A stretch of 64,000 bases of DNA from Tubiluchus corallicola (lineage: Eukaryota > Animalia > Priapulida), in NCBI GenBank assembly GCA_030141605.1, contig JAQGDQ010000426.1, positions 135,798 to 199,797 of the forward strand. Direction: 5' to 3'. A program made the translations under genes and the position numbers. This document shows positions 718 to 59,666 of the stretch, one piece after another (the stretch's first letter is position 1; the number at the start of each line of letters is the position of its first letter). The notes beneath the pieces were generated by a model. It saw nothing but the letters and a program-made list of their open reading frames with translations. It was not told where the DNA came from and searched no databases.

Positions 718-1461
718 ATTTGCATACAAATGTTGAACTGCTAACTGTATTGTCAGTTTCAAATGTTAGAACCACTATTTTGCAATTGTTTCGGTCTCTT
801 GTGGCTACGCTACACGTAAGATTTTCTTTTATTTCGATTGCATTTGGGCGAATGTAGTCAGAGGTGTATCAGTGCCCTTATTTTAACCTTTTTTTATCAT
901 TTAAACATTTGTGTTTTAAAATGTACAATGTACAATGTTCATAGACCATACAGGCTGATATTAAATTATTATTATTATGCCATATCAGTCAAATTGCATA
1001 GATAGTGAATTGCTTATTGTTGCCAGAATCCATTTTAAGCACATTTGTATTTGCTTTAAAAATTAAAATAGAGCATTGCACTCTTTCTGCATATGAACAA
1101 CTTACAACTTTGGCCTAGTAAAGGTCTTAGAATGATTTATTCATCACACAGACTGCATTGCATTTTTATACAATTTCAAAAAAGTTGAAATGAAATTAGC
1201 AAAAAATTCCACAATAACAAAAAAAGGGATTTTTCAATCTGTCACAGTGGATCTGTAATCTATTCCAGAAAAATTGCATTGCTTTTGTGACTGTTTTTCT
1301 TTTTTCCTTCTTACCCGAAGATTGTCCACGGTGCGGATGTAAGTGTCATGTGTTCTTTGTCTTTGTTGTGAAGGATAGTTTGTTAATTGCATAGTATCTA
1401 TTGTTGTCACTGAAAATCATTTCTGCATTATTAACAGATAAAGTCAGTTTAATACTATAAT

Positions 1462-1891
1462 CTTCTTCTTCTTCCCAGCTTTTCCCTGTTCGGGGTCACC
1501 GTTGTGAATGAGTCTTCTCCACGCATTCCTGTTGTTGACCATCTCTTCATTTATGTTCTTCTCTCTAAGGTCTCCATTAATACATTCAATGCATCTCCGC
1601 TTGGGTCGTCCTCTTCTTCTATTTCCATCCATCTCAACATCCTCATCTCCACCACATCCATTTTCTTCTCTTCAGTCTTCTTTAGAGAAGCTGCTTCCAG
1701 CCCATAGATTAGAGCGGGTCTGACCACTGCTTTGTGGACTTTACTTTTAAGTCTCACCGACTCATTCATAAAAGATTTTGGCACAGTTTTTACAGGCGGA
1801 TGCCCTTCCTGACCCTAACACTCCCTATTTATCCGGGCTTGGGACCGGCACTGAGTTGGGTTGGCTTGCCCCCCTCCCCAGTGGCTAGGTT
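1462..1891 (-). mobile_element. RTE-derived non-autonomous retroelement (twister-like head + RT C-terminal fragment + (GAA)n tail)
   Basis: 16-bp TSD AGTTTAATACTATAAT (1446-1461, 1892-1907); translated fragments KVHKAVVRPALIYGLE...EMRMLRW and RRRGRPKRR..NRNAWRRLI match RTE-clade ORF C-termini; GAA tail. Confidence 0.9.
1813..1891 (-). ncRNA. Twister-ribozyme-like 5' head (post-cleavage form; GAGGG mutated to GAGTG)
   Basis: AA-CCTA-GC-CACTG..CAGTG-CCGG-TCCC-AA-GC-CCGG-ATAAA-TAGG-GAGTG: P2, P3 and P4 stems and pseudoknot segments of the P1-type twister core. Confidence 0.7.
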
Positions 1892-2425
1892 AGTTTAATA
1901 CTATAATATTATAATAAATATATATTAAAAGATAAAATCAGTTTTATACTATAATATTATAGTATATATATATATATAGGGGTGTAAGCTCCCAGCTAGG
2001 TCCACCCGGACAACAATACATTTTGCTGCATTTTAAACCACTTTTCTCCCTTCTAGAAGCCATTTCCTCAAGAAAACTGACCAGTTTAGTACAGGTGTCA
2101 TCTCACCTTTGACTCAAAATTACGTATGAATCATTCATATACACTATACATGTATATGATTTACATAACTTTCATCTGTTTTCTTGTGATATATTATTTT
2201 TACAGATATAAGGCACCTTTAGGGTCTAACAAATCGTTCTAATGCTTGTAATTCAGAGAAAATATTAATTTGGTGTGTTGTAGCTGCTGCTGTGAAATGG
2301 AGGGCCCAGGCCCTTTGGGCCCACACCCTAAATCCACCAATGATATTATACATACTGTATATATACTATATAGTTATACAAGGTATCGTTCACAATAATT
2401 ATAATATTTTCCTTGGTTATAACAG

Positions 2426-2612
2426 GGTGTTAGCCACCTCGAGAAACATCCTCAGATCAAGTTCACGAAATCCGACCGTCTTGGATACTTGACCTTCTGC
2501 CCAACCAATTTGGGCACCACCCTTCGTGCCTCTGTGCATATCAAGCTACCAAAGACCTTGGACACGCCGGAAATGAAAGCTATTGTGGAAAAGCACGACC
2601 TCCAAGTCAGAG
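2426..2612 (+). CDS. Argk: Arginine kinase (ATP:guanido phosphotransferase), penultimate coding exon
   Basis: AG|..|GT bounded exon translating [62 protein letters not shown](G); contains the phosphagen kinase active-site signature CPTNLGT; phase-1 end matches the next exon. Confidence 0.95.
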
Positions 2613-2720
2613 GTACATTGATGTTTCGCTACTGTTATTTAGCGAATTATTTGTGTAATTTTTAGTGCAATAATTGACATACACAGTAACATAATTAGGT
2701 AATGAAAGATGAAAGGAACG

Positions 2721-2981
2721 AAGGTTTACAATTCCCCACGCAATTTAAATTAACCTAACTCTAACCCTAACCCCATTCCTCATCCTAACCCCAACCCTAA
2801 CCCCATTCCTCATCCTAGCCCTAACCCTAACCCCATTCCTCATCCTAACCCCAACCCTAACCCCATTTCTCATCCTAACCCTAACCCTAACCCCATCCTA
2901 ACCCCAACCCTAACCCCATTCCTCATCCTCACCCTAATCTCCCTCACCAGCTAATTTCTTGTGTGTGGGAATTGTAAACTT
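2721..2981. repeat. Telomere-like (CCCTAA/CCCCAT, ~30-bp unit) array bracketed by ~21-bp imperfect inverted repeats
   Basis: AAGGTTTACAATTCCCCACGCA ... TGTGTGGGAATTGTAAACTTT enclose about 6 units of ccctaaccccattcctcatcctaaccccaa. Confidence 0.7.
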
Positions 2982-7625: not shown

Positions 7626-10600
7626 TCACTTCGTTAAGCTGTCTTTTAATTTTGACAAAGTTTTTTGAATGTGGTCAAGTACGCCATCGCCATCGGCGTC
7701 TAAGTCATATCTGTCCGGTATACCATCTCCATCTTTATCCTGTTTGTGATCAGGTACACCGTCACCATCATGGTCATCATCTAAATGGTCCGGAATGCCA
7801 TCCTTGTCCAAATCTTCATGCACATCTAAAATGCCATCATTGTCGTCATCATGATCATGAATATCTAGGATGCCATCACCATCTGTATCGCGATGAGCAT
7901 CGGTTTTGCCATCACCATCTGCGTCCAAATCCCACCTATCTGGAATGCCATCTTTGTCTTTATCTTGTAAATGATCTAGTATGCCATCACCATCATGGTC
8001 TTTGTCAAGACTATCAGGTATTCCATCCTTGTCAGTGTCCTGGTGAACATCGAGAATACCGTCACCATCAGCATCTGCATCCCATCTATCTGGTATCCCA
8101 TCTTTATCGGCATCTTGATGCATGTCCAAAATGCCGTCACCATCATAGTCACTGTCCAAATGATCTGGTATACCGTCGCCGTCAGTATCTTCTGCCTTAT
8201 CTGGCTGGCCATCTCCATCATGGTCAAAATCATCATGTGTATCAATTATTCCATCTCCATCATGATCATGGTCCCATCGATCAGGAATGTTATCTCCATC
8301 AGCGTCTTTCAGAAAGTCTAGAATTCCATCACCATCATGATCAGCATCCAATGAGTCTGGAATACCATCAGAATCTTTATCTTGCAGTCTATCCAGTATT
8401 CCATCTCCATCAGCATCTATATCCCAGCGGTCTGGGATTCCATCACGATCACTGTCCTTTAATCTGTCGGGTATGCCGTCACCATCATAATCTTCATCAA
8501 CATTGTCTGGTATTCCATCACTGTCATGATCTTCCAAATGATCAGGTATGCCATCGTTATCATCATCAGTATCTACACAATCCGGAATTCCGTCTTGATC
8601 AAAATCTAATTTGTGATCATCACAGTATTTATCTCCATCACTATCATGGTCCCACCTATCTGGAATGCCATCATTGTCACGATCCTCATCTTTGTCTAAT
8701 ATGCCATTTCCATCTGCATCTGCATCTAAACTACTGATGATTCCATCATTATCGCGGTCTTGTATAGAATCAAGTATATAATCCCCATCTTTGTCAATAT
8801 CCCACCTGTCTGGAATGTTATCTCCATCTAAATCTTCTAACTTGTCTAAAATTCCATCACCATCATAATCAGGATCCATATAGTCTGGAATTTTGTCGCC
8901 ATCTCTATCTGTTAATCTGTCCTGTTTTCCATCTTGGTTTGCATCATTGTCCCATCTATCAGGTATACCATCATTATCACCATCCTCATTATTGTCGGGA
9001 ATGCCATCATTGTCAAAATCTGAATCTTTGTAATCAGGAATGGAATCATCATCTGTGTCCCAATCTTTGTCAGGTATACCATCACCATCTGCATCTCTAT
9101 CCCATCGATCAGGAATGTCATCTCCATCCATGTCCTCATCTTTATCTGGAATACCATTTCCATTAGCATCTTGATCTATACTATTAGGAATGCCATCCTG
9201 ATCATCATCTTGAAGGTAATCAGGAATTCCATCATTATCAGCATCTATATCCCATCGATCAGGAATACCATCTTTATCTAAGTCTTCAAGTAAATCTAAA
9301 ATTCCGTTTCCATCCATATCTGGGTCATATTTATCTGGTATGCCATCTCTATCTGCATCTTCTGTATTATCAAGTTTGTTATCTCCATCATAATCACGGT
9401 CACGTTTATCAGGAACACCATCATTGTCCATGTCATATTCATTATCAGGAACTCCATCGCCATTAACATCAATGTCCCATCGATCGGGAATTCCATCTTT
9501 ATCTTTGTCTTCAAGTTTGTCAAGGATACCATTTCCATCAAAGTCGGCATCAAGCTTATCTGGAATACCATCCTTATCTAAATCCTGCAGATAATCTGGG
9601 ATGCCATCCCCATCAGCATCTCTATCATATCTGTCAGGAATTCCGTCCCCATCACTATCTTCATTGAAGTCAATGATACCATCACCATCTGAATCGGAAT
9701 CTTTGTAATCAGGTATACCATCTCGATCTCTGTCATGAAGTAAATCTTTCTTTCCATCACCATCTGCATCAGAATCCCATCTGTCTGGTATACCATCATT
9801 GTCTTTATCTTCTTGCCAATCAATAATTTTGTTGCCATCGTAGTCACTGTCCCACAAGTCTGGAATGCCATCATGGTCTGTATCTTCTATTAGATCAATA
9901 ACACCATCTCCATCAGCATCAGCATCGAGGCTATCAGGAATCCCATCACTATCCATGTCCTTGATTGTATCAGGAATTCCCTTTCCTGATGGGTCTACGT
10001 CCCAACGATCTGGTATGTTATCTTTGTCAGCATCCTCGTATTTGTCTATTTTTCCATTATTATCATAGTTAGCATCCATCCAGTCAGGTACACCATCTTC
10101 GTCAAAGTCCTGAAATTTGTCGAGAATATTGTCGTTATTTGCATCAATATCCCATCTATCAGGAATTTTGTCGTCATCAAAATCTAGTTGGCTATCAATA
10201 ATTCCATCACCATCATAATCTGGATCAAGGTAGTCAGGAATACCATCTTTATCGAGGTCTTCAGCAGTATCTGGAATACCATCATTGTCATCATCAGGAT
10301 CTTTACAGTCTGGTATACCATCTTTATCTGTATCTACATGACTGCAGTCATTAGTATCATGGTCCCAGCGATCTGGGATTCCATCTTTGTCGGAATCTTC
10401 TAAATAATCTAGTATACCATTACCATCATAGTCAGGATCTAAGCTATCTGGTATGCCATCATTGTCTTTATCTTGTTTTCTGTCCATAATGCCATCACCG
10501 TCTGCATCCATGTCCCAACGATCAGGTGTTCCATCACCATCAGAATCTTTGTGTATATCTAATATACCATCTCCATCAAAGTCAGCATCTAAATGATCTG

Positions 10601-11212
10601 GAATTGAGTCTTTATCTAGATCTTCTTTTCTGTCTGGTATTCCGTCACCATCTGAGTCATGATTTTCAGGCAAATCCCATATGCCATCTGCATTGTAGTC
10701 GTGATCCCATCTGTCTGGAATTCCATCTTTGTCTTGATCTTCTAGATGATCAGCAATACCATCCCCATCAAAATCTGGATCAATTCTATCCGGAATTCCA
10801 TCTTTATCATAATCTTGTTTCCAGTCATCAATGCCATCACCATCTGCATCATGGTCCCACCTGTCTGGAATTCCATCTCCGTCTGCATCTTCTAAATGAT
10901 CAGGAATACCATTGCCATCATAGTCTGAATCAAGATGATCTGGAATACCGTCATTATCAGTGTCTTCTAGTCTATCAGGTATGCCATCACCATCAAGGTC
11001 GGAATCGTGGTGTAAATCAAGTACTCCATCACCATCATGATCTAAATCCCATCGGTCAGGAATGCCATCATTGTCAGCATCCTCCTTATAATCGGGAATA
11101 CCATCACCATCGATATCATGATCGTGGATATCTAAAATACCATCTTTGTCTATATCATGATGCTTTTTATCTTCTACGTCATTGTAAGAGTATTGTGATG
11201 CATCATTCAGTT
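7626..11212 (-). CDS. Secreted/luminal Asp-rich TSP type-3-like (DxDxDG) repeat protein, exon 2 (3587 nt)
   Basis: Uninterrupted ORF of ~1195 codons made of D-x-D-x-D-G-[IV]-[PL]-D units; tatttcag acceptor at 11213 in phase 1 (G+AA = Glu, ELNDASQYSY...); ends IQKTLSKLKDSLTK*. Confidence 0.93.
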
Positions 11213-12270
11213 CTGAAATAATAGAACAAAAAACAATCATTAGATGCAACATTAGAGGCTAGCCAAGACCCGGCAAAAGATTTTACTCATAAACGCCAAT
11301 AATGCGCAAGCATGCTACATAGTGTTCGTTTATTATCTACGCACTTAAAAATAATCTGTTAGATATTACCATTAACGCAAACCCAGCAGAATGGAATGAC
11401 GTCAGAGCAATGCAAGCGTCAACGAGAATCGCCCGAAATGGAGCTTCCGAAAAACTCCTCTTGGCGAATGTTTCCCCAAAAGCGACTCACATAAACGTGT
11501 AGCCCTATCCCCCTCTTTCCAAATAGCTGCAGATCTTCCTCCCAGACCCCAATCAGGTGCCGCTGGGACGTTTTTTCTACAGTGTGTTCTTCTAAAAGTT
11601 CCAAAAAATCGGATAGATGTGTCGGGAAAAACGAGCGTTGAGAAAAGTCGTGGGTTTGAACTTGCCATCAAACTATTATGAGCACTATTATACCGCGTGA
11701 GAAACAAGAGGTATAAATTTTCGCCCCTCCGTTCCTCCCGGTGTCCCGGATTCGAAAAATGAACCATCAACGAGGCGACATTTGATCGAGAATTTTCGTT
11801 TGTAATATAGAACACCGCAAATGATGCAATCATTAAAACTGTAGCCTCAAGTCTTGTATATAAAAAACGTGCCATACCACAGATATTAATATTATAGAAG
11901 ATTTAGATGTAAAACCCAATTTTTTGTTTCGTTTTTTTTGGTGAAATGAAACACCCTTATTTTGGTAGAAAAAGAACTGTTGCTCAATGAACCTTAACAG
12001 CCTAATTTAAACGCTACAAGAACGTTTAGGAAAGACTAGTTGCAAGAAATCTTCGTTGTATAAATTCACGTAACTCAATCACACTTTTGACAATAATACC
12101 CGTTTATATTATTTATTTTTATTGTGTTTAATGCTTCACAAATTGACTAATGACTGGCAAAAAGATGTGATTAAAAGTTCATCTCAACCTGGAATCGACC
12201 ACGCTCTGTTTGCAAGTCAAATCCTCTTTCTAATAACAATCAATTCGTTCAACGCTTTCAGCCACTGTAG

Positions 12271-17415: not shown

Positions 17416-17552
17416 ATATCTTCAACAGGACTCTTAAATACAGTAAGAATACGAATCTGAACATGTTGTGTTAATTTTTCTAAGATTAGACAACAATAAT
17501 GTTTGTCTTATCAGTATATTGAGAATTATATTATTTACTATTATTGTCCAAG

Positions 17553-18041
17553 ACAGTGAGACTTAAAGGTAAAGTTCACAAAGCAGTGGTCAGACCCGCC
17601 CTAATCTATGGGCTGGAAGCTGCACCTCTAAAGAAGGCAGAAGAGAAGAAAATGGATGTGGCGGAGATGAGGATGTTGAGATGGATTGTGGGAGTAACAA
17701 GAAGGGATAAAATCAGGAATAGTAATATTAGAGGAACAGTGAAAGTAGTGGAAGCCTCGAAAAGTATACAAGAGGCAAGATTGCGATGGTATGGGCACCT
17801 GAAAAGAAGAGTTGGGGAGGATCACGTGGGAAGGGAGGTCATGGAAATGGAAGTGCTGGGAAATAGAAGAAGAGGACGACCCAAGCTGAGATGGTATGAA
17901 TGTATTAACGGAGACCTTAGAGAGAAGAACATAAATGAAAAGATGGTCAACAACAGGAATGCATGGAGAAGACTTATTCACAACGGCGACCCCGCATAGG
18001 GAAAAGCTGGAAAGAAGAAGAAGAAGAAGAAGAAGAAGAAG
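17553..18041 (+). mobile_element. 5'-truncated copy of the RTE-derived element, antisense in the last ASPH intron
   Basis: ORF 17544-17999 (KVHKAVVRPALIYGLE...RLRWYGHL.RR...RGRPKLRW) is an RTE RT C-terminus; (GAA)n tail; 16-bp TSD ACT[A/G]TTATTGTCCAAG (17537-17552, 18042-18057). Confidence 0.92.
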
Positions 18042-18414
18042 ACTGTTATTGTCCAAGCCAGTAGATTTGTTCTTACTAGAAATAATGAAGTTGAACTCAA
18101 ATGAAAATGTATTTAACTCCTGTTGTTGATTAATTGCATTATTAACCCAAAGTGTTTTTATCGTTTCATAACAATTTTGACCTGTATTTCACATAAAATC
18201 TAAATGCTATTTTAGTTTAATCAAGATTGACCATATTTTGTTGCCCGCTAATTCAAGTACATGTATTTTCTTTACTCTGGATTATATAGCAAATGCCATA
18301 ATTTTAAAATCATTAATGTTTCCTAAATTAAACTGATAACATTAATGCCCACCAGTGTCTAAAATCATTTCATCTATATTCGGTATAGGATAGCAGACTA
18401 AATGACTTTATAGT

Positions 18415-21030: not shown

Positions 21031-21060
21031 CTGAAACAAACAAACATCATCATTTCAGTA

Positions 21061-21680
21061 TATATTACATAGTTACATAGCACTTAAACCCTTCCATATA
21101 TTACATAGTTAGCACTTCAGCCCTTCCATATATTACATAGTTAGCACTTAAACCCTTCCATATATTACATAGTTAGCACTTAAACTGTTCCATATATTAC
21201 ATAGTTAGCACTTAAACCCTTCCATATACTACATAGTTAGCACTTAAACCCTTCCATGTATTACATAGTTAGCACTTAAACCCTTCCATATATTACATAG
21301 TTAGCACTTAAACTCTTCCATATATTACATAGTTAGCACTTAAACCCTTCCATATATTACATAGTTAGCACTTAAACCCTTCCATATATTACATAGTTAG
21401 CACTTAAACTCTTCCATATATTACATAGTTAGCACTTAAACCCTTCCATATATTACATAGTTAGCACTTAAACCCTTCCATATATTACATAGATAGCACT
21501 TAAACCCTTCCAAATATTGCATAGTTAGCACTTAAACCCTTCCATATATTACATAGTTAGCACTTAAACTCTTCCATATATTACATAGTTAGCACTTAAA
21601 CCCTTCCATATATTACATAGTTAGCACTTAAACCTTTCCATATATTACATAGTTAGCACTTAAACTCTTCCATATATTAT
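21061..21680. repeat. 32-bp minisatellite, ~19 copies
   Basis: Unit CATATATTACATAGTTAGCACTTAAACCCTTC, near-perfect tandem array. Confidence 0.97.
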
Positions 21681-21738
21681 ATTGTTATGTAGTCAGACAT
21701 TACACAACACTTGAGTTAAAAAAGACAGCAGGTTGTTA

Positions 21739-25469: not shown

Positions 25470-26326
25470 TTATTCTTACTTACGCAATAAAGCTACTCAA
25501 ACATGAATTCTTATTACGTATTGAGTAACATGACTCTTATTCTTACTTAAAAAAGCTACTCAAACACGAATTCTTATTACGTATTAAGTAACATGACTCT
25601 TATTCTTACTTAAAAAAGCTACTCAAACACGAATTCTTATTACGTATTAAGTAACATGAAACTTATTCTTACTTAAAAAAGCTACTCAAACATGAATTCT
25701 TATTACGTATTAAGTAACATGAAACTTATTCTTACTTAAAAAAGCTACTCAAACATGAATTCTTATTACGTATTAAGTAACATGAAACTTATTCTTACTT
25801 ACGCAATAAAGCTACTCAAACATGAATTCTTATTACGTATTAAGTAACATGAAACTTATTCTTACTTAAAAAACTACTCAAACAGGAATTCTTATTACGT
25901 ATTAAGTAACATGGAACTTATTTTTACTTAAAAAAGCTACTCAAACACGAATTCTTATTACGTATTAAGTAACATGAAACTTATTCTTACTTAAAAAAGC
26001 TACTCAAACATGAATTCTTATTACGTATTAAGTAACATGAAACTTATACTTACTTACGCAATAAAGCTACTCAAACATGAATTCTTATTACGTATTAAGT
26101 AACATGAAACTTATTCTTACTTAAAAAAGCTACTCAAACACGAATTCTTTTTACGTATTGAGTAACATGAAACTTATTCTTATTAAAAAAGCTACTCAAA
26201 CACGAATTCTTGTTACGTATTGAGTAACATGAAACTTATTCTTACTCAAAAAAGCTACTCAAACATGAATTCTTATTACGTATTGAGTAACAGGAAACTT
26301 ATTCTTACTTAAAAAAGCTACTCAAT
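25470..26326. repeat. ~63-bp minisatellite, ~13 copies
   Basis: Unit AAAGCTACTCAAACATGAATTCTTATTACGTATTAAGTAACATGAAACTTATTCTTACTTAAA. Confidence 0.95.
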
Positions 26327-26901: not shown

Positions 26902-27697
26902 CTGCGTTCATTAATTTACATTGTCACTCTTAAACAAGCAAATGTCCAGAGCACGCATTCGTAAATTTATCATATATGGTTATCATATACGGTTATTTTA
27001 CATACGTAGAAGGGGACTTTAGGAAATGATTGCACTTCCAACTTCCTGTGTACTGAAGAAACCGAAAAGAATAGATAAAAATCTATTGCACTGTGAAAAA
27101 GAGTATTTAGTTTTACATAAAGGAGATTTATCATACCTAATGCCTGATAATACGCAGCACTGACCATGAATGGCCATGAATGTCCACGCGTTCATAATGG
27201 TTTCTCATCGAAAATGCCGCCATTTCTTCAACAAATTAACTGATTTTTTTTATTTTTAGCACTAAAATGTCGAAAGGATTTAAAAAACACGTTAAATAAA
27301 AATCATTATAATGATTAGAATATTTTAAAAAATACATTAATATTTTAAGTATAGCTATCATTTCCTGATACCCCGTGTAATTTCTATTCCAACATTAGTG
27401 ATTAAATGGTGTCAAACATATAAAATGCCTAAGTTGCCAAAATATGTGTTAACTCACAGTGTGAACAAAACCAGAACGCCATTAATTATGATCTCCGATT
27501 CCAAAATGCAGGTCCCAGATCTACAATCTCAGGACACCAAAAGACTTTATCTTAAACCTTGATATTGAATAGGTAATGCTGTAGGCAACTGGTGATTATG
27601 AATGGCATTACAAAAGAAAAAATTGTTGGAAAACTGTGCGAGAAATGCTTGTCAAAGCTTTTTGATTACTGTGCCAGAAAGGCAAAGTTTGTTTTAC

Positions 27698-30510
27698 CTT
27701 GTGCAATAAGTCATCTGCCATGTCAAGGTCTTTACGAATCTTGCTGTCATATTCATTTGTGATGTCTTTATTTCTGTACTTCAGCCGCTTGCCAACTCCC
27801 AAATCTTGTTCCCTTTCAGCTGCTTCTCGTGCACTTACTAAGTTCAGGGCATCAAAATCTTCAGCTACTGTTGCATCACTGACAAAGCTATCAGATTCGT
27901 CTACGTCGCTTTGACCACCTTTACGAGCGTAGCCATGAGGTTGTGCTTTTTGGAGTGAATCTAGTATGCCATCGCCGTCAGCATCATCATCCAGGTAATC
28001 AGGAATTCCATCACCATCTGTGTCAATCTGCTTCCAGTCTGGAATTCCATCGCCATCCTTGTCTTGCAGCTTATCTGGAATGCCGTCACCATTTGCATCA
28101 TCGTCTAGATAATCTGGAATTCCATCGCGATCCGTATCAATTTGTTTCCAGTCTGGAATTCCGTCACCATCTTTGTCTTGTAGATGATCAGGTATGCCAT
28201 CGTTATTGTCATCGTCATCAAGATAATCCGGAATTCCATCACCGTCGGTATCAATTTGTTTCCAGTCTGGAATTCCATCACCATCTTTGTCTTGCAGGTG
28301 ATCAGGTATGCCATCATTGTTATCATCGTCATCCAAATAATCTGGAATTCCATCACCATCTGTATCTATCTGTTTCCAGTCTGGAATTCCATCACCATCT
28401 TTGTCTTGTAGGTGATCAGGTATGCCATCATTATTGTCGTCATCATCAAGATAATCTGGAATTCCATCACCATCTGTGTCGAGGTCTTTGTCTTCCTCAA
28501 TACTTGCAAGTTTTCTTTTTTTGAAACCACTTCCTTGTTTACTGTCTGGAATACCATCACCATCTGCATCATCATCCAAATAATCTGGAATTCCGTCCCC
28601 ATCTGTATCGACTTGCTTCCAATCTGGAATTCCATCACCATCTTTGTCCTGTAAGTGATCTGGTATTCCATCATTATTATCATCATCATCTAAATAATCT
28701 GGAATTCCATCACCATCTGTATCAATCTGTTTCCAGTCTGGAATTCCATCTCCATCTTTGTCCTGTAAATGATCTGGGATGCCATCATTGTTATCATCAT
28801 CATCTAGGTAATCTGGAATTCCATCTCCGTCAGTATCGATTTGTTTCCAGTCTGGAATTCCATCTCCATCTTTGTCCTGTAAATGATCTGGGATGCCATC
28901 ATTGTTATCATCATCATCTAGGTAATCTGGAATTCCGTCTCCATCAGTATCAATCTGCTTCCAGTCTGGAATTCCATCTCCATCTTTGTCTTGTAAATGA
29001 TCTGGGATGCCATCATTGTTATCATCATCATCTAGGTAATCTGGAATTCCGTCTCCATCAGTATCAATCTGCTTCCAGTCTGGAATTCCATCTCCATCTT
29101 TGTCTTGCAAGTGATCAGGTATGCCATCATTATTGTCATCATCATCTAGGTAATCAGGAATTCCATCACCATCTGTGTCAATCTGCTTCCAGTCTGGAAT
29201 TCCATCACCATCCTTGTCCTGCAACTTGTCTGGAATACCGTCACCATTTGCATCATCATCTAGGTAATCTGGGATTCCATCACCATCAGTGTCTATTTCT
29301 TGCCAGTCTGGAATTCCATCTCCATCTTTATCACCTTGTAGTCTATCTGGTATACCGTCGCCATCTGCATCATCATCAAGGTAGTCAGGAATACCATCAC
29401 CATCTGTATCAACCTGTTTCCAGTCTGGAATTCCATCACCATCTTTGTCTTGAAGATGATCAGGTATGCCATCATTGTTGTCGTCATCATCTAGATAATC
29501 TGGAATTCCATCACCGTCTGTATCAACTTGTTTCCAATCAGGAATTCCATCACCATCCTTATCCTGTAACTTGTCTGGAATACCATCTCCATTTGCATCA
29601 TCATCTAGGTAATCTGGGATCCCATCACCATCAGTGTCAATCTCCTGCCAGTCGGGAATTCCATCTCCATCTTTATCACCTTGTAGTCTATCTGGAATGC
29701 CATCGCCATCTGCATCATCATCAAGATAATCAGGAATGCCATCCCCATCAGTATCAATCTGTTTCCAGTCTGGAATTCCATCACCATCTTTATCTTGTAA
29801 ATGATCTGGGATACCATCATTGTTGTCGTCGTCATCTAGGTAGTCCGGAATTCCGTCACCATCAGTATCGATTTGTTTCCAATCTGGAATTCCATCTCCA
29901 TCTTTGTCCTGTAAATGATCTGGGATGCCATCATTGTTGTCGTCATCATCTAGGTAATCTGGAATTCCATCGCCATCAGTATCAATCTGTTTCCAGTCTG
30001 GAATTCCATCTCCATCTTTGTCCTGCAGATGATCAGGTATGCCATCATTATTGTCATCGTCATCTAGGTAATCTGGTATTCCGTCCCCATCAGTATCGAT
30101 TTGTTTCCAGTCTGGAATTCCATCTCCATCTTTGTCCTGTAAATGATCTGGGATGCCATCATTGTTATCATCATCATCAAGGTAATCAGGAATGCCATCA
30201 CCATCAGTATCGATTTGTTTCCAGTCTGGAATTCCATCTCCATCTTTGTCTTGCAAGTGATCAGGTATGCCGTCATTATTGTCATCATCGTCTAAGTAAT
30301 CTGGAATTCCATCACCGTCTGTGTCAATCTGCTTCCAGTCTGGAATTCCGTCACCATCTTTGTCCTGCAACTTGTCTGGAATGCCATCACCATTTGCGTC
30401 ATCATCTAAGTAATCTGGTATACCATCTCCATCGGTGTCGATATCATGTAATGCTTCCTTGTCTAGTAATGTTTGGCCACCTTTTTCAACTTTTTGTTTT
30501 GACGAATGTT
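27698..30510 (-). CDS. ASPH: ASPH coding exon 2: giant luminal exon with 22 x ~38-aa DxDxDG repeats plus start of the TPR region
   Basis: ttttag acceptor in phase 1 (EHSSKQK...); 2813 nt; ends ITNEYDSKIRKDLDMADDLLHK|gtaaaa, homologous to the N..D..I...LD.A..L.K.G segment that precedes the ASPH TPRs; in frame with exon 3. Confidence 0.92.
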
Positions 30511-30718
30511 CTAAAATAAAATGAGCACAATCAGTGCAAGAGGATATGCGCCCACATAATCCAATATAAGAACAAATGTAAAAAACTGTATCTCTATTTT
30601 TTTCAATTTCAATTACAACTTGAAAGACTTTATTAGATTGTGTTTGTAAGTGCTGCAGTGATTTTCTACAGGAAAAATATGGCATTAATCAGCAAAGGAA
30701 AACCTGTTCATTTCTCAC

Positions 30719-33380: not shown

Positions 33381-33720
33381 TATACTTTAAAATTCTGTTT
33401 TCTTCTCCTTTAATCTTTATGTTGCAAATTATAGCCGACTGCTGTTTTTAGGACATACTTTAAAATTCTGTTTGCTTCTCCTTTAATTTTTATGCTGCAA
33501 ATTATAGCCGACTGCTGTTTTTAGGACATACTTTAAAATTCTGTTTTCTTCTCCTTTAATTTTTATGCTGCAAATTATAGCCAACTGTTGTTTTTAAGGC
33601 ATACTTTAAAATTCTGTTTTCTTCTCCTTTAATTTTTATGCTGCAAATTATAGCCAACTGCTGTTTTTAGGGCATACTTTAAAATTCTGTTTTCTTCTCC
33701 TTTAATCTTTATGTTGCAAA
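33381..33720. repeat. 73-bp minisatellite, ~4.5 copies
   Basis: Unit atactttaaaattctgttttcttctcctttaatttttatgctgcaaattatagccaactgctgtttttagggc. Confidence 0.93.
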
Positions 33721-34661
33721 GTATTTATGAATCAGAGCACAGCAAAACAATTGTTGAATGGAAAAAGACTAAAAAAATTAACCATTCACAGCGTGAACTT
33801 AGATGAAAAGAAGAGTTAATCTACAATTCACACTAGAAGTTATTCATTCTACATAACAAAGTACTGCCGAACTTTTCTATGCACATCTCCTGAACATCTC
33901 CTTGAAAGAAAAGTGAAGTATTTCGTAAGAAATGTTGCGAAAATAAGCAGACAATTCCGAGCTTTTGCTACTTATGGCAGGGTTACAATAACCTGCTTAG
34001 CTATCAGTTCTTAAAGCACAAGAAAACCCCCCACTTACATAAAGCTTAAAAAATCCGTCTTGAAATTTTATACCACTAACATACTGCCTTTTTGCATATT
34101 AGGCTTTGCGTCGGCAATAACGCAGGATAAAACATGTAAATCTAAACTCCAGCGATGACCGTTAGACCAGCCATTTTGACGATATGTCATTTGAAACAAG
34201 TTAAAATCACATTGTGTGAAGTTTGAGAAAATAACCAGCGCATTTGTAGCGCACACGTCATTAAATAAATAAAATTTAAAATTACTGTATCTTGTCAATA
34301 AGAGTAAAAATACGTTTTTGGTTTGTGAGTGGTGCACCCTGGAGGGTGAGTCAGCGACATTTTACCAATTGGTGAAAACATTTTAGATAATTAATAATTT
34401 TTTCTAGTTACGTAAGTCTTTCAAGCAGGTAAGCGAAATACTAAGTTTGCATAGAAGGTTTTTTAAATGATAGTTTAACATTTACTTTTCTTCTTCTGAT
34501 TTACATTGGCATAGGTGACGTAATGGCGCGGTCGGAACAGTATTGCGGGAGATTTAAAATGAAAACAAATAAAAAATCCCTTTAACGCGAGTACCATATA
34601 CGCAAAAATTGCTATAAAGTAATATAATTTTTATCGCGGTTTTTCTGAAGCCTACTAGGTA

Positions 34662-45378: not shown

Positions 45379-46129
45379 GTTGTACCATGAAAAACCTGCG
45401 TCAGATCACCATAAATAATATGGCGTTGCAAGGTTATGTACGATTCAAAAAGGGAAATGCTGCTATTAAAAAGTTATTACATTAAATTCCTAGCTATGCT
45501 ACTACTACCCGGACCACCCTCAGCATACCAAGTACCACCACCCCCACTACGTTCCCCGTTCTCCAGAAATAAGGAATATAAGTTTTGCAAAAAAAAAAAC
45601 ACTCAGCAAGGCTGTTTTTGGAGGTTTTTCGACCTTGTTTCTCTCGGTGAGCCCGAGAAATAAACCATCAACTGGACGACACCAGATGGAGATCTCCATT
45701 TGCTGTACGGATTGCCAAAAAGGGTGATGTGATTGGATCTATAGCCCGGAATTTTATAAACCCTTATTCGCTGAAATTAAAATATCAGATTATGCTGTAT
45801 AATTAGATAAATTTTGTTGTACGACAACTAAGTTGAGCTGCAGCATCCATTTGGGGCTTTTTAGTTTTAATTATTGTCATAAAGATGAAAGTGTAAAATA
45901 ACCTGGAGAAAATACTTCACTGACGTATGCTGCTAAGTTACCAAATGGAAAATTTTGTAGTTATCTTTTCATCGAGTTAATTTTGTTCTGCTGCATTGTT
46001 AATTGTTGTTTTTGTTGTTTTTTTGTCACTTGTCAATTGTACTACAATTGTCAACTTGCTGAGCAAATTTTCAGGGCATTATAATCGCAAAACGAACAAT
46101 AAAAGGTATGTGATTATCTACATACATGT

Positions 46130-46209
46130 AACCTAGCCACTGGGGGGGGGGGGCAAGCCAGCCCAACTCAGTGCCGGTCCCAAGCCCGGATAAATAGGGA
46201 GGGTTAGGG
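46130..46209 (+). ncRNA. Twister-ribozyme-like core (best-preserved copy, lacks the 5' strand of P1)
   Basis: AA CCTA GC CACTG..CAGTG CCGG TCCC AA GC CCGG ATAAA TAGG GAGGG: P2 CCTA/TAGG, P3 CACTG/CAGTG, P4 CCGG/CCGG, pseudoknots CCC/GGG and GC/GC; GCCGGTCCCAAGCCCGGATAAA is the core I recall for the rice twister ribozyme. Confidence 0.8.
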
Positions 46210-46290
46210 TCAGGAAGGGCATCCGCCTGTAAAAACTGCGCCAAAACCTTCTATAAATGAGTCGGTGAAGCTGGGAAGAAGAAGAAGAAG
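46130..46290 (+). mobile_element. 161-bp minimal twister-headed retroelement (head fused directly to the RTE 3' tail)
   Basis: Perfect 17-bp TSD ATTATCTACATACATGT (46113-46129, 46291-46307); same head as the 1462-1891 and 56344-56845 copies; tail AAGCTGG(GAA)n; no RT sequence. Confidence 0.92.
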
Positions 46291-46514
46291 ATTATCTACA
46301 TACATGTATAACTTAAAGAATTTCATTAATTGTAGGTCGTTTTCGTTTAAACATCTTTTATATCCGTGCAGCACATGTTTGTAATCTACTCTATCGTATA
46401 AAAACGTCAGTTGCGATCTTCGACCTTTTAGAGCAGCAATAAAAATCTTTATCTGTTTCACGCTAGGATTAACACATCTGATTCTGCAAGCAGCTAATAA
46501 TGTGGTTGTAGGTA

Positions 46515-47019
46515 GAATTAGAATTAGAATTAGTTTATTCTCCGTAATGATTTTACATAACATAAGTAGGCAACGATAATTATATAATTAACGAAATTAA
46601 AATTTAACTACAAATAAAAAAATCATATACAGGGGGCAAATTTCTTTACCGAATCAACAAAAATATCGCGTTTTAATGTAGGGGCACACTAGTTCTTCAC
46701 TCATACGTCTTAACACATCTCCAACAATATTTCATTAATGACGTTAAATTTGGAGAGTGCATAAGGTTACAAATGCTAGAAAAGTTCAACTCAGAATGTT
46801 CAGTTCGTAAATCTTCTGTCACCGGACATCTCAATAAGACGTGGGCTTCTGTTTGAACTTCTTCCCCACAAGTACATAATCTGTCTTCTCTCGGTATTCT
46901 GGACCAACGTCCGGTTTCTACCATGAGATTATGCGATGACGTCCTAAGTCTGGTAAATTCAATTCTTTGGTAGTCCGGGATTTCAGATTCAATATCATTA
47001 TAGACTTTATGAGTAACAT
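46515..47019 (-). mobile_element. 5'-truncated LINE 3' end (RTEX/L2-like) with C-terminal zinc-finger motif
   Basis: TRLRTSSHNLMVETGRW....REDRLCTC...QTEAHVLLRCP; AATAAA followed by (CTAATT)n tail; 6-bp direct repeat TAGGTA at 46509-46514 and 47020-47025. Confidence 0.85.
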
Positions 47020-47599
47020 TAGGTACATTCTCCCTAATCAAGCCAAAACCGGGATAAACATAGCCACTTTTTCCAAAATGCAAGTCTTCTTTGTGAATTT
47101 TTTATCCGACCTTCATTAAGTCATTTGATGTGAATCACAGATTACATGTAGAAACAGAATTTCAAATCAACGCTCGAGAACAGCGTAACAAAGTTTCGCC
47201 GTATCTACACCATAGCTGCAGAACTTGCTGGTTTCCCCCCACCTTCCCGAGGTACAGTAGTTCGTACAAGTTCCAAAAATAGTTGACATTTTCTTTGCTT
47301 TTCCTTTCGACTACAACTTGAGCCATTTCGTTATATTTCCACTAATTCTTTTTCTGAATAGTGATGACTGTACGAAATGCGTTTACTAACTTACTCAATT
47401 ACGTCATTGAAGATCAAAAGGTAATCAAGTTGTTATTATTCGGAGAAGATGAATTTAACTACGTTGCTAACTGTAAAATATTTCAATGCATACATGACTT
47501 TACATTACGTACTAAACGCTTCTAGTAGTTTCTATCTGATATGAAATGCATCAGTCTTAAATAATCGTACATTAATATTTTCTAACTGTCATTTTCTGC

Positions 47600-54335: not shown

Positions 54336-56343
54336 AAACACCGTCAGAACAATGACTGGCAGCTAATTAGGCGAAAAGTATGTATGTTAAACGGCCGAAA
54401 TTAAACAACACTGGACCTTCTTAGTAAATAAACTGCCAAATCTATTATTTAGCATAGATTACCAATTGCTCGATGCAGACTGCTATCACGCACTCTGTCA
54501 CTTGACTTCCGTGTTTTTATTAATTCATCATTAATATGTTAGTCGAAACTATTTCATTATAATTAAGCATAATGATGATGTCTTGCCTATTTTTTGTACC
54601 ACATTTCACTTTAAAATGGAATATGATGACATCTTGCCTATTTCTTGTATCAGATTTCACATTAAAATGAAATACGCTGCAAATATTTGTATCATTAAAT
54701 TAAATTTTAAATTTCACTTACCAGCTTGTTAAACGACGCCCTAAAATTAGAATTAAACCTGTCCACCTTTCTGCAAAATAAAATACCGTGAATCGAATAG
54801 CCCAAATTAATGCTGACTGGCAGAATACTGTATGTTTAATTTTTCTTTTAATAGATGGCGATACCATGCGATTAGGAATCAGAACCATCACTGCGCTCTC
54901 AAACTGTGCAAAATTACGGAGAAACTGCGGGTAAAAATAAACGAAAGACAATAAAAGGATGGGCGTGGAAATACTGACCGTTAAAGTGAACAGAAGAAAA
55001 AAGGAGGAGAGAAAAGAGCAATAACTAAAAGCAAACAAGGCTCTAGAACATTAAGACTTATTTGAGCAACAACAGCTGTTCCATCCAGCATCTTACCCAT
55101 TAAATGATCTACTGCTACCACTTTGAAATATCGCCAGCATTGCCACTTCGGAATGCACTTTTCCCCGCCAGATGTCAGCAGTAAATCAAGCAACCACCAG
55201 CAGCTGATGGCATCTTCCGAGGAGGAATGGGAAAGGGCGAAGAAGGCAGCTGCAGAAGTCTTGCACCTTGCACCTGCTGGTTCTGTTCGCAGCAACAATT
55301 GAGGCACCACAAGTAAGTGTGCTTTCACCGTTTCTATATATGTTTTTCATCGAAAATTCAGCGCACAATCGCAAAGAAACTTGAATTATTCGGCGCACAG
55401 TTTGAGCTAATAATCTCGAGTGAGGATGAGCAAAACAAAGTTGCTGACAGTGTTTATTTTCGTCTAAGCTGCACATTCCTTTAGCAGCTGAAACCATTGA
55501 AAAAAACCGATTAGGAGGCTGATGTCTGAAACCGAAACTTTTAACAAAGAAACGTTTCGGAATTTTTAAAAGGTAAAAATTTCAAAATTTTTCATAAATC
55601 GTTTAATTTTGCTTGCCAGCTTTGTTAGCACAAGTAATAATATCAGAGAAGCGGTAATTTTTATATTTAGTGTTTCTTTGTGATCTGCAAACTAAATTAT
55701 TATTTTTGTTTTTATTGGTTTAGTGGAGTTCCATGAGCTTAAGTTTTAGTTATCCATCTACAACTGACTGTTTCTATTGTCATTTTGTACCATGACTGTA
55801 TTACAAAGATTTCCACTAATAATTGAAGCCGCCGGTGAATGAAATAATTATGACTTAGTATTATAGTATTGTACTATAGCATAATATTACATAGTGTAGT
55901 ATTACAGTATATTATTATGTTGTATTATATTATAGAATTACAGTATAAACTTGCTGTATTATCAATATAAGTAATTAAGAAAATGTTCTATGCAAAGAGG
56001 CGCTATCTAATGATTAAACTTGCAAAACCAATAATGTCATTAATTTTACATACAGAAGTACTACGGTGTAGATAGCAATAGTTATTCATTCTAGCAAAAA
56101 ACATTAATTAATTAATATCTATTTATTAAGTAAAAGACACGTTTATTCATTCTAACTTTTATGTAAGTACAGATAAAAGCTAGAAAGAATAATTATATCG
56201 AAAACAAGAGATCGAGTTTAAATTGAAATTGGCCTATGATTCTAAGTCTTACGGCTACAGAACCAAACAAACTGTCTGTATATTGCCTCCAATATTACAT
56301 ATCTATTTAGCATATATATATATATACTAAATAGATATGTAAT

Positions 56344-56845
56344 CTTCTTCTTCTTCTTCTTGCCAGCTTTTCCCTATTCGGGGTCGCCGTTGTGAATGAG
56401 TCTTCTCCACGCATGCCTGTTGTTGACCATCTCTTCATTTATGTCTTCCCTTCCCACATCATCTTCACCGACTCTTCTTTTCAGGTGTCCATACCATCGC
56501 AATCTTGCCAGGCTTCCACTACTTTTACTGTTCCTCTGATATTATTATTTCTAATTTTATCTCTTCTTGTTATTCCCACCATCCATCTCAACATCCTCAT
56601 CTCCACCACACCCATTTTCTTCTCTTCGGTCTTCTTTAGAGAAGCTGCTTCCGGCCCATAGATTAGAGCGGGTCTGACCACTTCTTTGTGGACTTTACCT
56701 TTAAGGTCTCACCGACTCATTCATAGAAGGTTTTGGCGCAGTTTTTACAGGCGGATGCCCTTCCTGACCCTAACCCTCCCTATTTATCCGGGCTTGGGAC
56801 CGACACTGAGTTGGACCGGCTTGCCTCCCCCCCAGTGGCTGGGTT
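56344..56845 (-). mobile_element. RTE-derived twister-headed retroelement copy with internal deletions
   Basis: 18-bp TSD ACTAAATAGATATGTAAT; RT fragment VVRPALIYG.EAA...EMRMLRWMVGITRRDKIRN; (GAA)n tail; same 5' head. Confidence 0.9.
56768..56845 (-). ncRNA. Twister-ribozyme-like 5' head (one P2 mismatch)
   Basis: AA CCCA GC CACTG..CAGTG TCGG TCCC AA GC CCGG ATAAA TAGG GAGGG. Confidence 0.7.
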
Positions 56846-59666
56846 ACTAAATAGATATGTAATATTAATACTAAATAATATGTAATAATATATATATATA
56901 TATATTATATATATATATATAGTATAGTATTGTATATATAGTATATGTATGTAATGTACAAGAGCTGCTGTTGCTTTATTATGAAAGCTGCAACTAAGTT
57001 TCCTCACTTTTCGGGCAATCTTAGAGCTGCAGCCATTGTTCAATAATAAATCACAAATTTATTCATGCTGTTACGTATCAGTCTAATGAAAATGCAATCA
57101 ATTAAGAGAAATGAATAACAGTAATAAACCGCGGAATTATCAGAAGCAATTTATCATTAATCAGCATAAGATATTCAAGCAATTGTTTTGATTATTGCTT
57201 TTTCTTCCTTCGTTATATTGGCTCTAATCAAACATGTCAGTTTCCGCTCGTGAATCTTCGCTAATTTTGCGCTTAAACAAAGGCAAGTCTTGAGAATACC
57301 GACAAACAAGTTTTAGTTGCAATTAGGCAGGAAATTCAGCAATGCAGCATTTTTACAAAACGCTGTAGAAAAGAATGAAATGATTGGCATCTTAAAACAC
57401 TTTAAGATAATCTAGAAAGCATTTCAATTTATTACACTCTGTCTATAACCTTATAGCTTTGATTCAGTAAAAGCTGCTGGCTTTGAGTTAGATAAACAGA
57501 CAAACACTAGGTAGAATGTTCACGCATTTTAATTTAATTATAAGTGTATTTATACGCAAAATTTGCTATAGTATATATATAGCCTTTGCTAGTCTATATA
57601 TTAATTCTACTGTTATGTTATATATATAAGATTCGAGGTTACAGCTCGGACGACGGCACCATTTGCGGCGATCTAACTGGGCATTTCTTACAAAAGCATA
57701 ACCTTATTTAATACACAATTATTGACTTAGTAGAAACGACTTCCCGCATATTTGTAATCAAGGAATATCAAGACTTTTTTATTTTTATTTATGGTAGAAT
57801 TGCCTACGTTTTTCAACAAGTTTACAGCACTTCTGCACGACCAGCAAGAAGCACGTGCGTGATAATGAAGCTCTGTGCACTAATATGGCTCATCAAACAG
57901 AATATATGATGATAATATAAACCACAAATAATTCTATGCTCTAATTTAATTACAGTAATTAGTTTGCAATCATACCCTACTGCTTGAGTAAACAAAAACT
58001 GATGAGCTATGCCATATTGAATTTAAGATCTTGCTCACAAGGGCCTGTTTGGTATGCAGGTCAAACGTTCAAAGCCATTGGTTCAAACCCAGTTTCACGT
58101 CTGTTTTTTTCACGTGTTTTCTCTGTCAGATTTGCATTTAAATGTAAACTCATCATGTGTTAATTCATTAATAATTGCTGGACAGTTGAAATAACATTAC
58201 ATAGATTCGTAATTACGTAATTTCAAAATTATATAATTACACAGTTTAAATATGTAACAGTGTATATTGCCACTTGAACTTAAATTGTGTGTGTACGTGT
58301 TGTTAACACTATGTACAATTATCATATGACACATACGATATAAATGCATTACAAAAATCCATTAAAAAGCACGCATATGTGAAAAACACAAATAAGAAAA
58401 ACACAAAAGTAGAATACAAATAAGATAAACAACAATGGCTGAATGCAGTAGCAATAATTTATCAACATAAGAAAAATTTATATCGATCATTTCTTAGTAA
58501 AACCATTTTCGGTTTTTACTGCTTCAGTTCAATTTTGCTCTGCTATATTGAGCAATAACTATATTATTGTCGTAATGCAGTTAGCAACATATTGCGTGAC
58601 CCCATCTTGCTCAGGCCAAAAGACGCTTAACAAAGATAGTTAATTCATGTTATAAAAGCGCCACAATGTACTTTATTCGAGCTCTGGAATTTAGCGCAGT
58701 GACGTCTTATAGAAATTGTTCACAGATTCTCCAGCCCACAGAATTTGCTGTCAAGATGCACAAGTGACGCTGAAATGATTATTATATAAGCAACACCCAC
58801 TCTGTTAAATTGTTGGACATTTTAACTGATCTTAAGACAAAACCAGACCTAATCCTAAAGTGTAGGTCAAAATAATCTGCTCTTTAAAATATTGAAAAAA
58901 AACATAATATTTTTTTAATATTTTTTCTTTGTAGAGTTTTGATATTGTTTTTAAGTTTGATATTGGTTTGTGATAAAAGAAGATTTCATTTACGTAAACG
59001 CTTAACGCTTGAACATAGGAAGCTCTGCTCAGCTTAAAGCAAAGCCGGACCCAATCTTAAACTGCAGGTCAAAACAATCTACTCTTTAAAATATTGAAAA
59101 CAAACATAATATTCTTTCAAAAATGACTTACGTGAAAGAATTATTACTACACAAACAGACTTTCACGTCTCCGCCACTAGTTCTTCACTGTTACATGCGT
59201 TTCACCATTTGCTAGTTAGAAGGACACTAGCTCCTGCATTTCGGAAACGCATTGCACAAAAACAGGTGCTGTACCTCTCAGTTCAGATGCGTTAGTTTCT
59301 GTTGGAACCACATACGTTCGACAGCTCATGTGTGACCACAGCGGCAAATTTGAAATTTGAATATTTATCTTTAAACTTGCCTAGTTTCAGTACAACACAC
59401 TGAATATCTTACAGTAGCACTGTACTTCAATGTTCTCCTTCACAAACACAAACTCTTCCGCAACACGCTCACGGAATATTTTTGCTGTTGATAATTATGT
59501 TGGTTTGTGATGTCATCAATTGTTGTGTTCGCCTGCCGTTAATTAAGTTTTTAATCTATTATCTAATTATCAGAAATGCTTTTGCAGTATTAATTGTGTT
59601 AAAATGTATACTTTTTATCGGACTTGAATAACTATATGAAAAATCATCCCGTCTTCCTTTAAATTA

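What the first reader, a model, noticed from the sequence alone, without database searches (positions are those of the whole stretch)
1446..56863. Four-copy bipartite retroelement family whose 5' ends coincide with a twister ribozyme cleavage site
Seen: three TSD-flanked copies (1462-1891 -, 46130-46290 +, 56344-56845 -) all begin at AACC[T/C]AGC and continue with stems P2 (CCTA/TAGG), P3 (CACTG/CAGTG), P4 (CCGG/CCGG), loop TCCC-AA-GC and ATAAA...GAG[G/T]G. The ~140-nt head is joined to the 3' end of an RTE ORF and a (GAA)n tail. A fourth copy (17553-18041) is 5'-truncated. Established: P1-type twister ribozymes have this core and cleave at U|AA just 5' of P2, and self-cleaving ribozymes are known to define the 5' ends of some non-LTR elements, including RTEs. 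Inference: the source RNA was released by twister self-cleavage, so each full-length insertion starts at the first A of the product and lacks the 5' strand of P1. This would be a ribozyme-processed SINE-like family with no visible Pol III promoter.
Basis: partly seen in the sequence, partly recalled or inferred. Interest (0 to 1): 0.82.

Follow-up and report, generated by a model that had tools for sequence, protein, structure and literature searches.

The report
Twister-headed shortened RTE retrotransposon family
These are copies of an abundant jumping element made of the two ends of a 3-kb RTE retrotransposon, and they begin exactly where a twister-type RNA is predicted to cut itself free; that set-up is already published for a blood-fluke element, so this is a further example, apart from a small conserved hairpin on the ribozyme whose role is untested.

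Summary
Three TSD-flanked copies (A, B, C) start at the AA of a type-P1 twister. Rfam twister-P1 scores are 54.9-58.1 bits (E about 1e-9), under the 67.2 cut-off; P2 covaries among relatives. In public assemblies holding this family, 57 of 131 (X2) and 20 of 54 (X3) partly laid contigs begin within two bases of that AA, with unrelated flanks. So no master with a conserved upstream P1 strand was seen, and published assays show P1 is dispensable. The head is not a SINE head. It is the parent LINE's 5' UTR plus its first ORF bases, fused at a 3-base microhomology to the last 146 codons (about 2.5 kb lost): a bipartite non-autonomous LINE. Copy D carries minority, parent-like alleles and is probably a truncated LINE, not a fourth family member. 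Both halves are published: twister-defined 5' ends in Schistosoma Perere-3, and bipartite RTEs and R2 SIDEs. This scan noted the same kind in seven earlier findings on other DNA. One detail was not found described: a covarying hairpin with an AAGCCA-type hexaloop at the tip of P3 in 6 of 7 distinct related heads. Cleavage is untested.

The parts
46130..46290 (+). Copy B: 139-nt head joined directly to the last 23 nt (end of 3' UTR and (GAA)n tail); best-preserved ribozyme core
46130..46207 (+). Type-P1 twister core of B: AA 46130-31 (predicted 5' end after cleavage), P2 46132-35/46195-98, GC pseudoknot 46136-37/46184-85, P3, P4, CCC/GGG pseudoknot 46179-81/46201-03, GAGGG 46199-46203, 3' strand of P1 46204-07
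   Evidence: Rfam RF03160 58.1 bits, E 1.8e-10; pair counts
46150..46164 (+). Hairpin at the tip of P3 with the AAGCCA hexaloop (46155-46160), conserved in related RTE heads on a covarying stem
46208..46263 (+). Rest of the parent LINE's 5' UTR, and the first bases of its ORF (ATG at 46257-46259)
   Evidence: same UTR motif ahead of APE-RT ORFs in L001-L003 and L005-L007; parent continuation in run X3; N-termini of relatives
46112..46129 (+). 5' TSD of B (3' copy 46291-46308; one more base at either end is shared with the element)
1462..1891 (-). Copy A: head, junction, ORF 3' part with a 172-nt deletion relative to D, (GAA)n tail; G>T in GAGGG breaks one pseudoknot pair
1892..1907 (-). 5' TSD of A, 16 bp (3' copy 1446-1461)
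56344..56845 (-). Copy C: head, junction (+1 base), ORF 3' part with 16- and 90-nt deletions relative to D, tail; the flank happens to give a fully paired 4-bp P1; P2 has one mismatch
56846..56863 (-). 5' TSD of C (3' copy 56326-56343)
17553..18041 (+). Copy D: 5'-truncated RTE 3' end with an open frame of 148 codons, 82% identical to residues 841-986 of the 987-aa APE-RT protein P0001; probably from the parent-like lineage
17537..17557 (+). 5' TSD of D, 21 bp with 2 mismatches to 18042-18062; its last four bases also match the LINE ORF (microhomology at the truncation)

Best explanation
This is an internally deleted, non-autonomous RTE-type LINE whose 5' end is likely made by self-cleavage of the twister ribozyme that it inherited from its parent's 5' UTR. 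Steps: (1) Shown from sequence: a deletion of about 2.5 kb at a 3-base microhomology joined the parent's 5' UTR and first ORF bases to its last 146 codons, 3' UTR and (GAA)n tail, and the joined form then spread as a unit. (2) Inferred: a copy is transcribed by read-through from host DNA, and the twister cuts just before the AA, releasing an RNA that starts 5'-HO-AAC. (3) Inferred: the intact LINE's APE-RT protein binds the retained 3' end in trans and inserts it by target-primed reverse transcription, leaving 16-21-bp TSDs. (4) Shown: new copies start at the AA with unrelated upstream DNA. Inferred from published assays: the new flank becomes the 5' strand of P1, which is dispensable, so copies with an intact core, such as B, could cleave again without any special master.
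For: Twister-P1 hits at 3 of 3 heads and nowhere else in 64 kb. P2, which my search pattern did not constrain, has changes on both sides at 4 of 4 pairs across 8 aligned heads; whole structure 93.7% paired versus 20-50% when slid. 5' loose ends at 46128-46130: X1 38 of 74, X2 57 of 131, X3 20 of 54, X4 5 of 27 partly laid contigs; next largest 5' site shown is 7, inside the G run. The same head sits in front of APE-RT ORF starts in L001, L002, L003, L005, L006, L007; L002 starts at the same AAC directly after a RTE tail and a 20-nt spacer. Parent continuation after 46263 in X3 (2 contigs, agreement 1.0) reads in the frame of the ATG at 46257 as a peptide resembling the N-termini of P0151/P0001 (translated by hand). 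Parent ORF upstream of the junction in X4 (4 contigs, agreement 0.96) reads as the residues just before 841 of P0001 (by hand). The head-to-ORF junction is the best-supported 3' loose end in 4 of 4 runs (9, 23, 5, 8 contigs). Precedent: PMC8501958, PMC5786205, PMC3414825.
Against: No cleavage assay and no RNA data (no RNA holder listed). All hits are below Rfam's gathering score. ViennaRNA's free fold of B is a different structure, 2.9 kcal/mol below the nested twister fold (pseudoknots are not modelled). A and C carry flaws in the core. The read evidence is from assembled contigs, only 24 of 133 loose-end rows were shown, and X1/X2/X4 are one sample that may be the window's own source. No full-length parent from this genome was obtained. 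RTE placement rests on architecture, not on a tree.
Confidence: 0.85

Rival explanations
1. The twister is a passenger inherited from the parent; the short element's RNA starts at the AA because an internal Pol II promoter in the 5' UTR initiates there, or because reverse transcription stops there.
For: LINE 5' ends often hold promoters (PMC5786205 passage). Two of three window heads have core flaws. The conserved UTR motifs and L3 loop could be promoter elements.
Against: The start coincides to the base with the cleavage position of the Rfam model and piles there in two samples. P2 covaries across families. Laid contigs show no common variant (3% or more) anywhere in the head (table 3).
Confidence: 0.08
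2. It is a Pol III SINE with a ribozyme-like head and an RTE tail.
For: Short, high-copy, RTE tail. A one-mismatch A-box-like string lies at head position 5 in A and B (box consensus recalled).
Against: No tRNA and no other Rfam family. No head has both an A and a B box. The head is continuous with the parent ORF start.
Confidence: 0.03
3. A, B and C are not a mobile family but full-length LINE copies that each lost their middle after insertion.
For: Each has private deletions, and many single-contig internal joints exist in the runs (13 joints listed).
Against: A and C share the same head-ORF junction at different loci with their own TSDs. That junction dominates in 4 of 4 runs.
Confidence: 0.02

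Closest known systems
T-variant twister ribozymes at the 5' end of Perere-3 (RTE clade), Schistosoma mansoni (Liu et al. 2021, PMC8501958; abstract, sections 17, 18 part 1 of 2, 19, 21, 22, passages, and supplement search passages read)
   Same: Type-P1 twister heading an RTE-type element; TSD directly beside the AA; the TSD supplies the 5' strand of P1; nearly the same L4/P4/L1 sequence (their Table 1); ORF start about 110-150 nt downstream (here 126-128).
   Different: Perere-3 is autonomous and its ribozymes were assayed. Here the abundant form is internally deleted and untested. Perere-3 L3 loops are UCCG/UUCUA-type, without the AAGCCA hairpin. The tail is GTAA there and GAA here.
Bipartite non-autonomous RTE LINEs (RTESINE1/2, MAR4_MD, WALLSI3, Bov-A; Kojima 2018 PMC5786205 and 2020 PMC7245038, passages read)
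   Same: 5' end and 3' end of an RTE joined by internal deletion, thought to be Pol II transcribed and mobilised in trans. Kojima notes that they usually keep the parent's 5' end and links this to 5' ribozymes.
   Different: The passages read cite HDV-like ribozymes (Ruminski 2011), not twister. This family keeps about 146 codons of ORF rather than UTRs only.
R2 SIDEs and R2/R1 SIDEs of Drosophila; TbRIME (Eickbush and Eickbush 2012, PMC3414825; abstract and Discussion read)
   Same: Non-autonomous element made of a 5' self-cleaving ribozyme and a LINE 3' end; relies on co-transcription with host sequence.
   Different: HDV-like ribozyme, site-specific in 28S rDNA, and rare. Here it is a twister, dispersed and abundant.
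Twister ribozyme type P1, Rfam RF03160 (survey of natural twisters: PMC11662667, passages read)
   Same: P2, P4, both pseudoknots, L1 and L4 conserved bases; auxiliary P3.
   Different: Scores 9-12 bits under the gathering cut-off; P1 is supplied by flanking DNA; P3 is longer and ends in a conserved hexaloop, whereas that survey could derive no consensus for auxiliary stem-loops.

Membership tests
Twister ribozyme type P1 (RF03160) | Score at or above Rfam gathering threshold (67.2 bits) | tested here: not met
   58.1, 55.7, 54.9 bits; E 1.8e-10 to 1.5e-9
Twister ribozyme type P1 (RF03160) | P2, P4, two pseudoknots, conserved L1 (AA / GAGGG) and L4 | tested here: met
   Complete in B; one pseudoknot pair broken in A; one P2 mismatch in C. 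The 3' core was part of my search pattern for relatives, so its invariance there is by construction.
Twister ribozyme type P1 (RF03160) | Covariation in stems | tested here: met
   P2: 4 of 4 pairs change on both sides in 8 heads; 6 cells, 0 of 500 shuffles as high. A, B, C are close kin; L001, L004 and L008 were left out of the alignment.
Twister ribozyme type P1 (RF03160) | Paired P1 stem | tested here: inconclusive
   Four pairs from the flank in C, poor in A and B; published as dispensable
Twister ribozyme type P1 (RF03160) | Site-specific self-cleavage giving a 5'-HO-AA end | not testable with these tools
   Needs an in vitro assay; 5' ends of copies fit the site
RTE-clade LINE (parent) | Single ORF of about 1000 aa with APE and RT, no other Pfam domain | tested here: met
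   P0001, 987 aa, 82% identical to D's peptide; PF03372/PF14529 + PF00078 only. This is a relative, not the parent from this genome.
RTE-clade LINE (parent) | Placement in the RTE clade on an RT tree | not tested
   No reference RTE proteins were at hand. Indirect: Penaeus members of a related cluster are named craniofacial development protein 2-like, a label of RTE-derived APE domains (recalled).
RTE-clade LINE (parent) | Short tandem-repeat 3' tail and variable TSDs | tested here: met
   (GAA)n in 4 of 4 copies; TSDs 16-21 bp, all different
Bipartite non-autonomous LINE / SIDE | 5' part derives from the parent LINE's 5' end | tested here: met
   Same head before APE-RT ORF starts in 6 of 8 related loci; parent continuation in X3, 2 contigs
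Bipartite non-autonomous LINE / SIDE | 3' part derives from the parent's 3' end, and the joined form is amplified as a unit | tested here: met
   tblastn to residues 841-987 of P0001; shared junction in A, C and 4 of 4 runs
Bipartite non-autonomous LINE / SIDE | Intact autonomous partner in the same genome | tested here: inconclusive
   No genome held; only short loose ends on both sides of the deletion, from different runs
SINE (Pol III) | Head from tRNA, 5S or 7SL RNA with A and B boxes | tested here: not met
   0 tRNA genes; no such Rfam hit; no A+B pair in 3 of 3 heads
Retrozyme | Hammerhead ribozymes in LTRs or tandem repeats (definition from search listings) | tested here: not met
   Only twister-P1 hits, single dispersed copies with TSDs

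The most novel reading that the evidence does not exclude
One lineage of RTE twisters carries an undescribed functional module: a hairpin at the tip of P3 with a near-invariant AAGCCA hexaloop on a strongly covarying stem. It would act as a cis signal, read by the element's protein or docking on the invariant GGGUU after cleavage, that helps complete the 5' end. That could explain why head-bearing deletion derivatives, rather than 5'-truncated ones, came to dominate this family.
Probability: 0.25. Interest if true: 0.55.

Novelty: new member of a known kind. Interest (0 to 1): 0.3.

Why it matters
It extends the twister-at-the-5'-end model from one flatworm LINE to a distant RTE lineage and its miniature parasite, and gives a twister counterpart of the HDV-ribozyme SIDEs. 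Because each insertion rebuilds P1 from random flank, a full genome would give a large natural series for testing which flanks keep copies active. The principle itself is published. The conserved L3 hexaloop is the one lead that could teach something new about how RTE RNA 5' ends are recognised.

Tried and rejected
Whole-genome census: no genome is held for this window. RNA evidence: no RNA holder listed; this says nothing about expression. Idea that the endonuclease's nick preference restores the U before AA (T stands there in 3 of 3 window heads, chance 0.03): among the loose-end rows shown, T is at -1 in 16 of 38, 24 of 57 and 9 of 20 contigs against a 0.32 background, p 0.07-0.15. That is weak, so it was dropped; any base is tolerated in Perere-3. 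Conserved upstream P1 strand: not seen, flank agreement 0.44-0.60. Folding z-scores were uninformative. The search for related loci with P0001 found nothing in viral contigs (3 candidates, 0 confirmed) or genome contigs (17 candidates, 0 confirmed); the head pattern found 0 in viral contigs. Pfam gave only a sub-threshold, irrelevant hit for D's peptide. Literature searches for a twister-headed non-autonomous RTE and for the L3 loop found no paper describing either; the library lacks most subscription papers and Repbase. The supplement of PMC11662667 could not be read; it lists thousands of twisters with their L3 and may bear on how widespread the hexaloop is. Look-ups of earlier scan findings by sequence and in this genome gave nothing.
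Full report
Observation. A (1462-1891, minus), B (46130-46290) and C (56344-56845, minus) begin at AACC[T/C]AGC, end in (GAA)n and are flanked by TSDs of 16, 18-19 and 18-19 bp. D (17553-18041) has a 21-bp TSD with two mismatches. The heads are about 94% identical. B has lost almost all of the ORF part; relative to D, A lacks 172 nt and C lacks 16 and 90 nt.

The ribozyme. Rfam gives nothing at gathering threshold. In E-value mode the whole window yields 3 hits at E<=0.01, all twister-P1, on the three heads: 58.1, 55.7 and 54.9 bits against a cut-off of 67.2. The element's first two bases align to the AA of the model's UAA, i.e. the 5' end left by cleavage (PMC8501958). B has every core pair. 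A breaks one pair of the CCC/GGG pseudoknot, an element in which many mismatches are poorly tolerated (PMC11662667). C has a P2 mismatch. A pattern scan found related heads in 4 metagenome and 4 genome-collection contigs, all hitting twister-P1. In an alignment of A, B, C and five of these eight (L001, L004 and L008 left out), P2, which the pattern did not constrain, changes on both sides at 4 of 4 pairs. The structure is 93.7% paired against 20-50% when slid. Free-energy folding gives no support (7 of 7 z-scores near 0; the free fold of B is 2.9 kcal/mol below the nested twister fold), though it does not model the two pseudoknots.

5' ends beyond the window. No genome is held, so I laid assembled contigs of four public runs (two samples; X1, X2 and X4 are one sample and may be the window's source) on copies C and B. 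Summed depth over the head is thousands of times that of B's private joint (X2: 7-9 x 10^5 versus 197). The tool states that this is no copy number; I take it only as 'very abundant'. On B's head, contigs that leave the element at its 5' side do so at 46128-46130: 38 of 74 partly laid contigs in X1, 57 of 131 in X2, 20 of 54 in X3, 5 of 27 in X4. Those totals include contigs leaving at the 3' side. The next largest 5' site shown has 7 contigs, inside the variable G run; 109 of 133 rows were not shown. The upstream letters are unrelated between contigs (agreement 0.44-0.60), so there is no shared upstream P1 strand. The T before AA in all three window copies is only weakly enriched in the runs (42-45% against 32%, p 0.07-0.15).

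What the head is. D's open frame is 82% identical to residues 841-986 of a 987-aa single-ORF APE-RT protein, P0001. The nearest named relatives are from decapods: Penaeus indicus at 76%, and Scylla paramamosain in P0001's cluster. In 6 of 8 related loci the same head lies just ahead of the start of such an ORF. In L002 it begins at the same AAC, 20 nt after an RTE tail. Two loose ends define the deletion. In X3, two contigs continue after 46263 with sequence that, read by hand in the frame of the ATG at 46257, resembles the N-termini of P0151 and P0001. In X4, four contigs continue upstream of the ORF fragment with sequence that reads as the residues just before 841. Both parent sides carry TCA at the breakpoint, and two X4 contigs show the junction with that TCA intact, where A, B and C have TCG. 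So about 2.5 kb was deleted at a 3-base microhomology. The junction is the best-supported 3' loose end in all four runs (9, 23, 5 and 8 contigs), so the joined form spread as a unit. There is no tRNA gene and no A+B box pair. The element is a bipartite non-autonomous LINE, not a SINE.

Copy D. At five sites in the ORF block D has the allele seen at 2-8% of depth; C has the majority allele at all five, and A at the four it retains. The D alleles include the parent-like Pro and Ala residues of P0001. Its truncation falls on a 4-base match between target and ORF. It is probably a 5'-truncated copy of the parent-like lineage. That it ends at the family's junction is unexplained, and an older bipartite origin is not excluded.

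Mechanism. Shown: anatomy, TSDs, junction, 5' pile-up. Inferred from established non-LTR biology and the papers below: read-through transcription, twister cleavage before the AA, trans-mobilisation by the parent's APE-RT through the retained 3' end, and re-formation of P1 from the new flank (four pairs by chance in C). Confidence 0.85. The main rival is a promoter or RT stop at the same base (0.08).

Comparison with what is known. Liu et al. 2021 (PMC8501958) showed this arrangement for Perere-3, an RTE of S. mansoni. They found TSDs beside the AA, cleavage in vitro and in reporters, any base tolerated before AA, and P1 supplied by the TSD. Kojima (PMC5786205, PMC7245038; passages) describes bipartite non-autonomous RTEs as common. 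Eickbush and Eickbush (PMC3414825) describe ribozyme-headed SIDEs. A review (PMC6765202; passages) added nothing specific. My searches found no paper on the combination twister plus internally deleted RTE, but it follows directly from these. The scan's own notes list seven findings of this kind on other DNA; they are unchecked AI notes and I did not test them.

One added detail. The tip of P3 is a hairpin whose loop is AAGCCA in A, B, L001, L002, L003, L006 and L007, AAACCA in L005/L008 and AAGCCG in C; L004 has a short P3 without it. That is 6 of 7 distinct related heads, from families only about 40-56% identical to P0001 in protein. The stem covaries: 10 cells change on both sides, score 0.71 against 0.19 in shuffles (0 of 500) and at most 0.36 when slid; the structure was proposed from these same sequences. 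The loop was not in my search pattern. A catfish twister in Liu's supplement has the same loop, the S. mansoni ones do not, and a survey of natural twisters found no consensus for auxiliary stem-loops (its supplement was unreadable). A search for the motif in print found nothing relevant by title or abstract. Its function is unknown; protein recognition or pairing with the GGGUU that follows, whose UU is invariant in all heads listed, are guesses.

Verdict. Real feature, largely correct first reading, known mechanism: new member of a known kind, interest 0.30.

Noticed in passing
window 7626-11258 (-) and 27608-30688 (-): Two long open frames (1210 and 1026 codons, stop to stop) of Asp-rich DxDxDGIPD repeats, matching Pfam TSP_3 above its cut-off (57.7 and 61.7 bits). 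Probably large exons of calcium-binding proteins; D lies between them.
   Followed up: partly
window 1761-1769 (-), copy A; same site in C: A second ATG four bases upstream of the parent's start codon is in frame with the retained C-terminal ORF part after the junction (73 codons open in A), while the native start hits a stop after three codons. An undeleted copy could encode a peptide of about 150 aa; not tested for selection.
   Followed up: no
L004 850-1241: In another organism a twister head with a short P3 is followed directly by ORF residues 750-889, suggesting an independent internal deletion.
   Followed up: no
runs laid on window 46085-46276: Loose ends at 46203-46205 and 46198 show the same twister core with other downstream or upstream sequence, i.e. 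further twister-headed repeat families in these samples.
   Followed up: no
runs laid on window 56300-56900: Run X3 has head depth only about 5% of 3'-end depth, whereas X1/X2/X4 have roughly 30-60%; library bias or a different mix of copies. Thirteen low-depth joints, most from single contigs, and private deletions in A, B and C suggest frequent further deletion.
   Followed up: no
3' junctions of A, B, C, D: All four TSDs begin with ATTA, GATTA or ACT[A/G] right after the (GAA)n tail, hinting at a target preference or tail-target microhomology; n = 4.
   Followed up: no
L005, L006, L007, L008: Animal RTE fragments with twister heads sit in contigs filed under bacterial genomes, probably contamination; this could inflate counts of 'bacterial' twisters.
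   Followed up: no
window 46697-47101 (-): A 134-codon frame resembling the C-terminal end of another LINE ORF (by eye); no Pfam hit.
   Followed up: partly
window 62251-63937, 25470-26325, 21060-21687, 33382-33724: Minisatellite arrays with periods of about 87, 63-67, 64 and 73 bp seen in the self-comparison.
   Followed up: no
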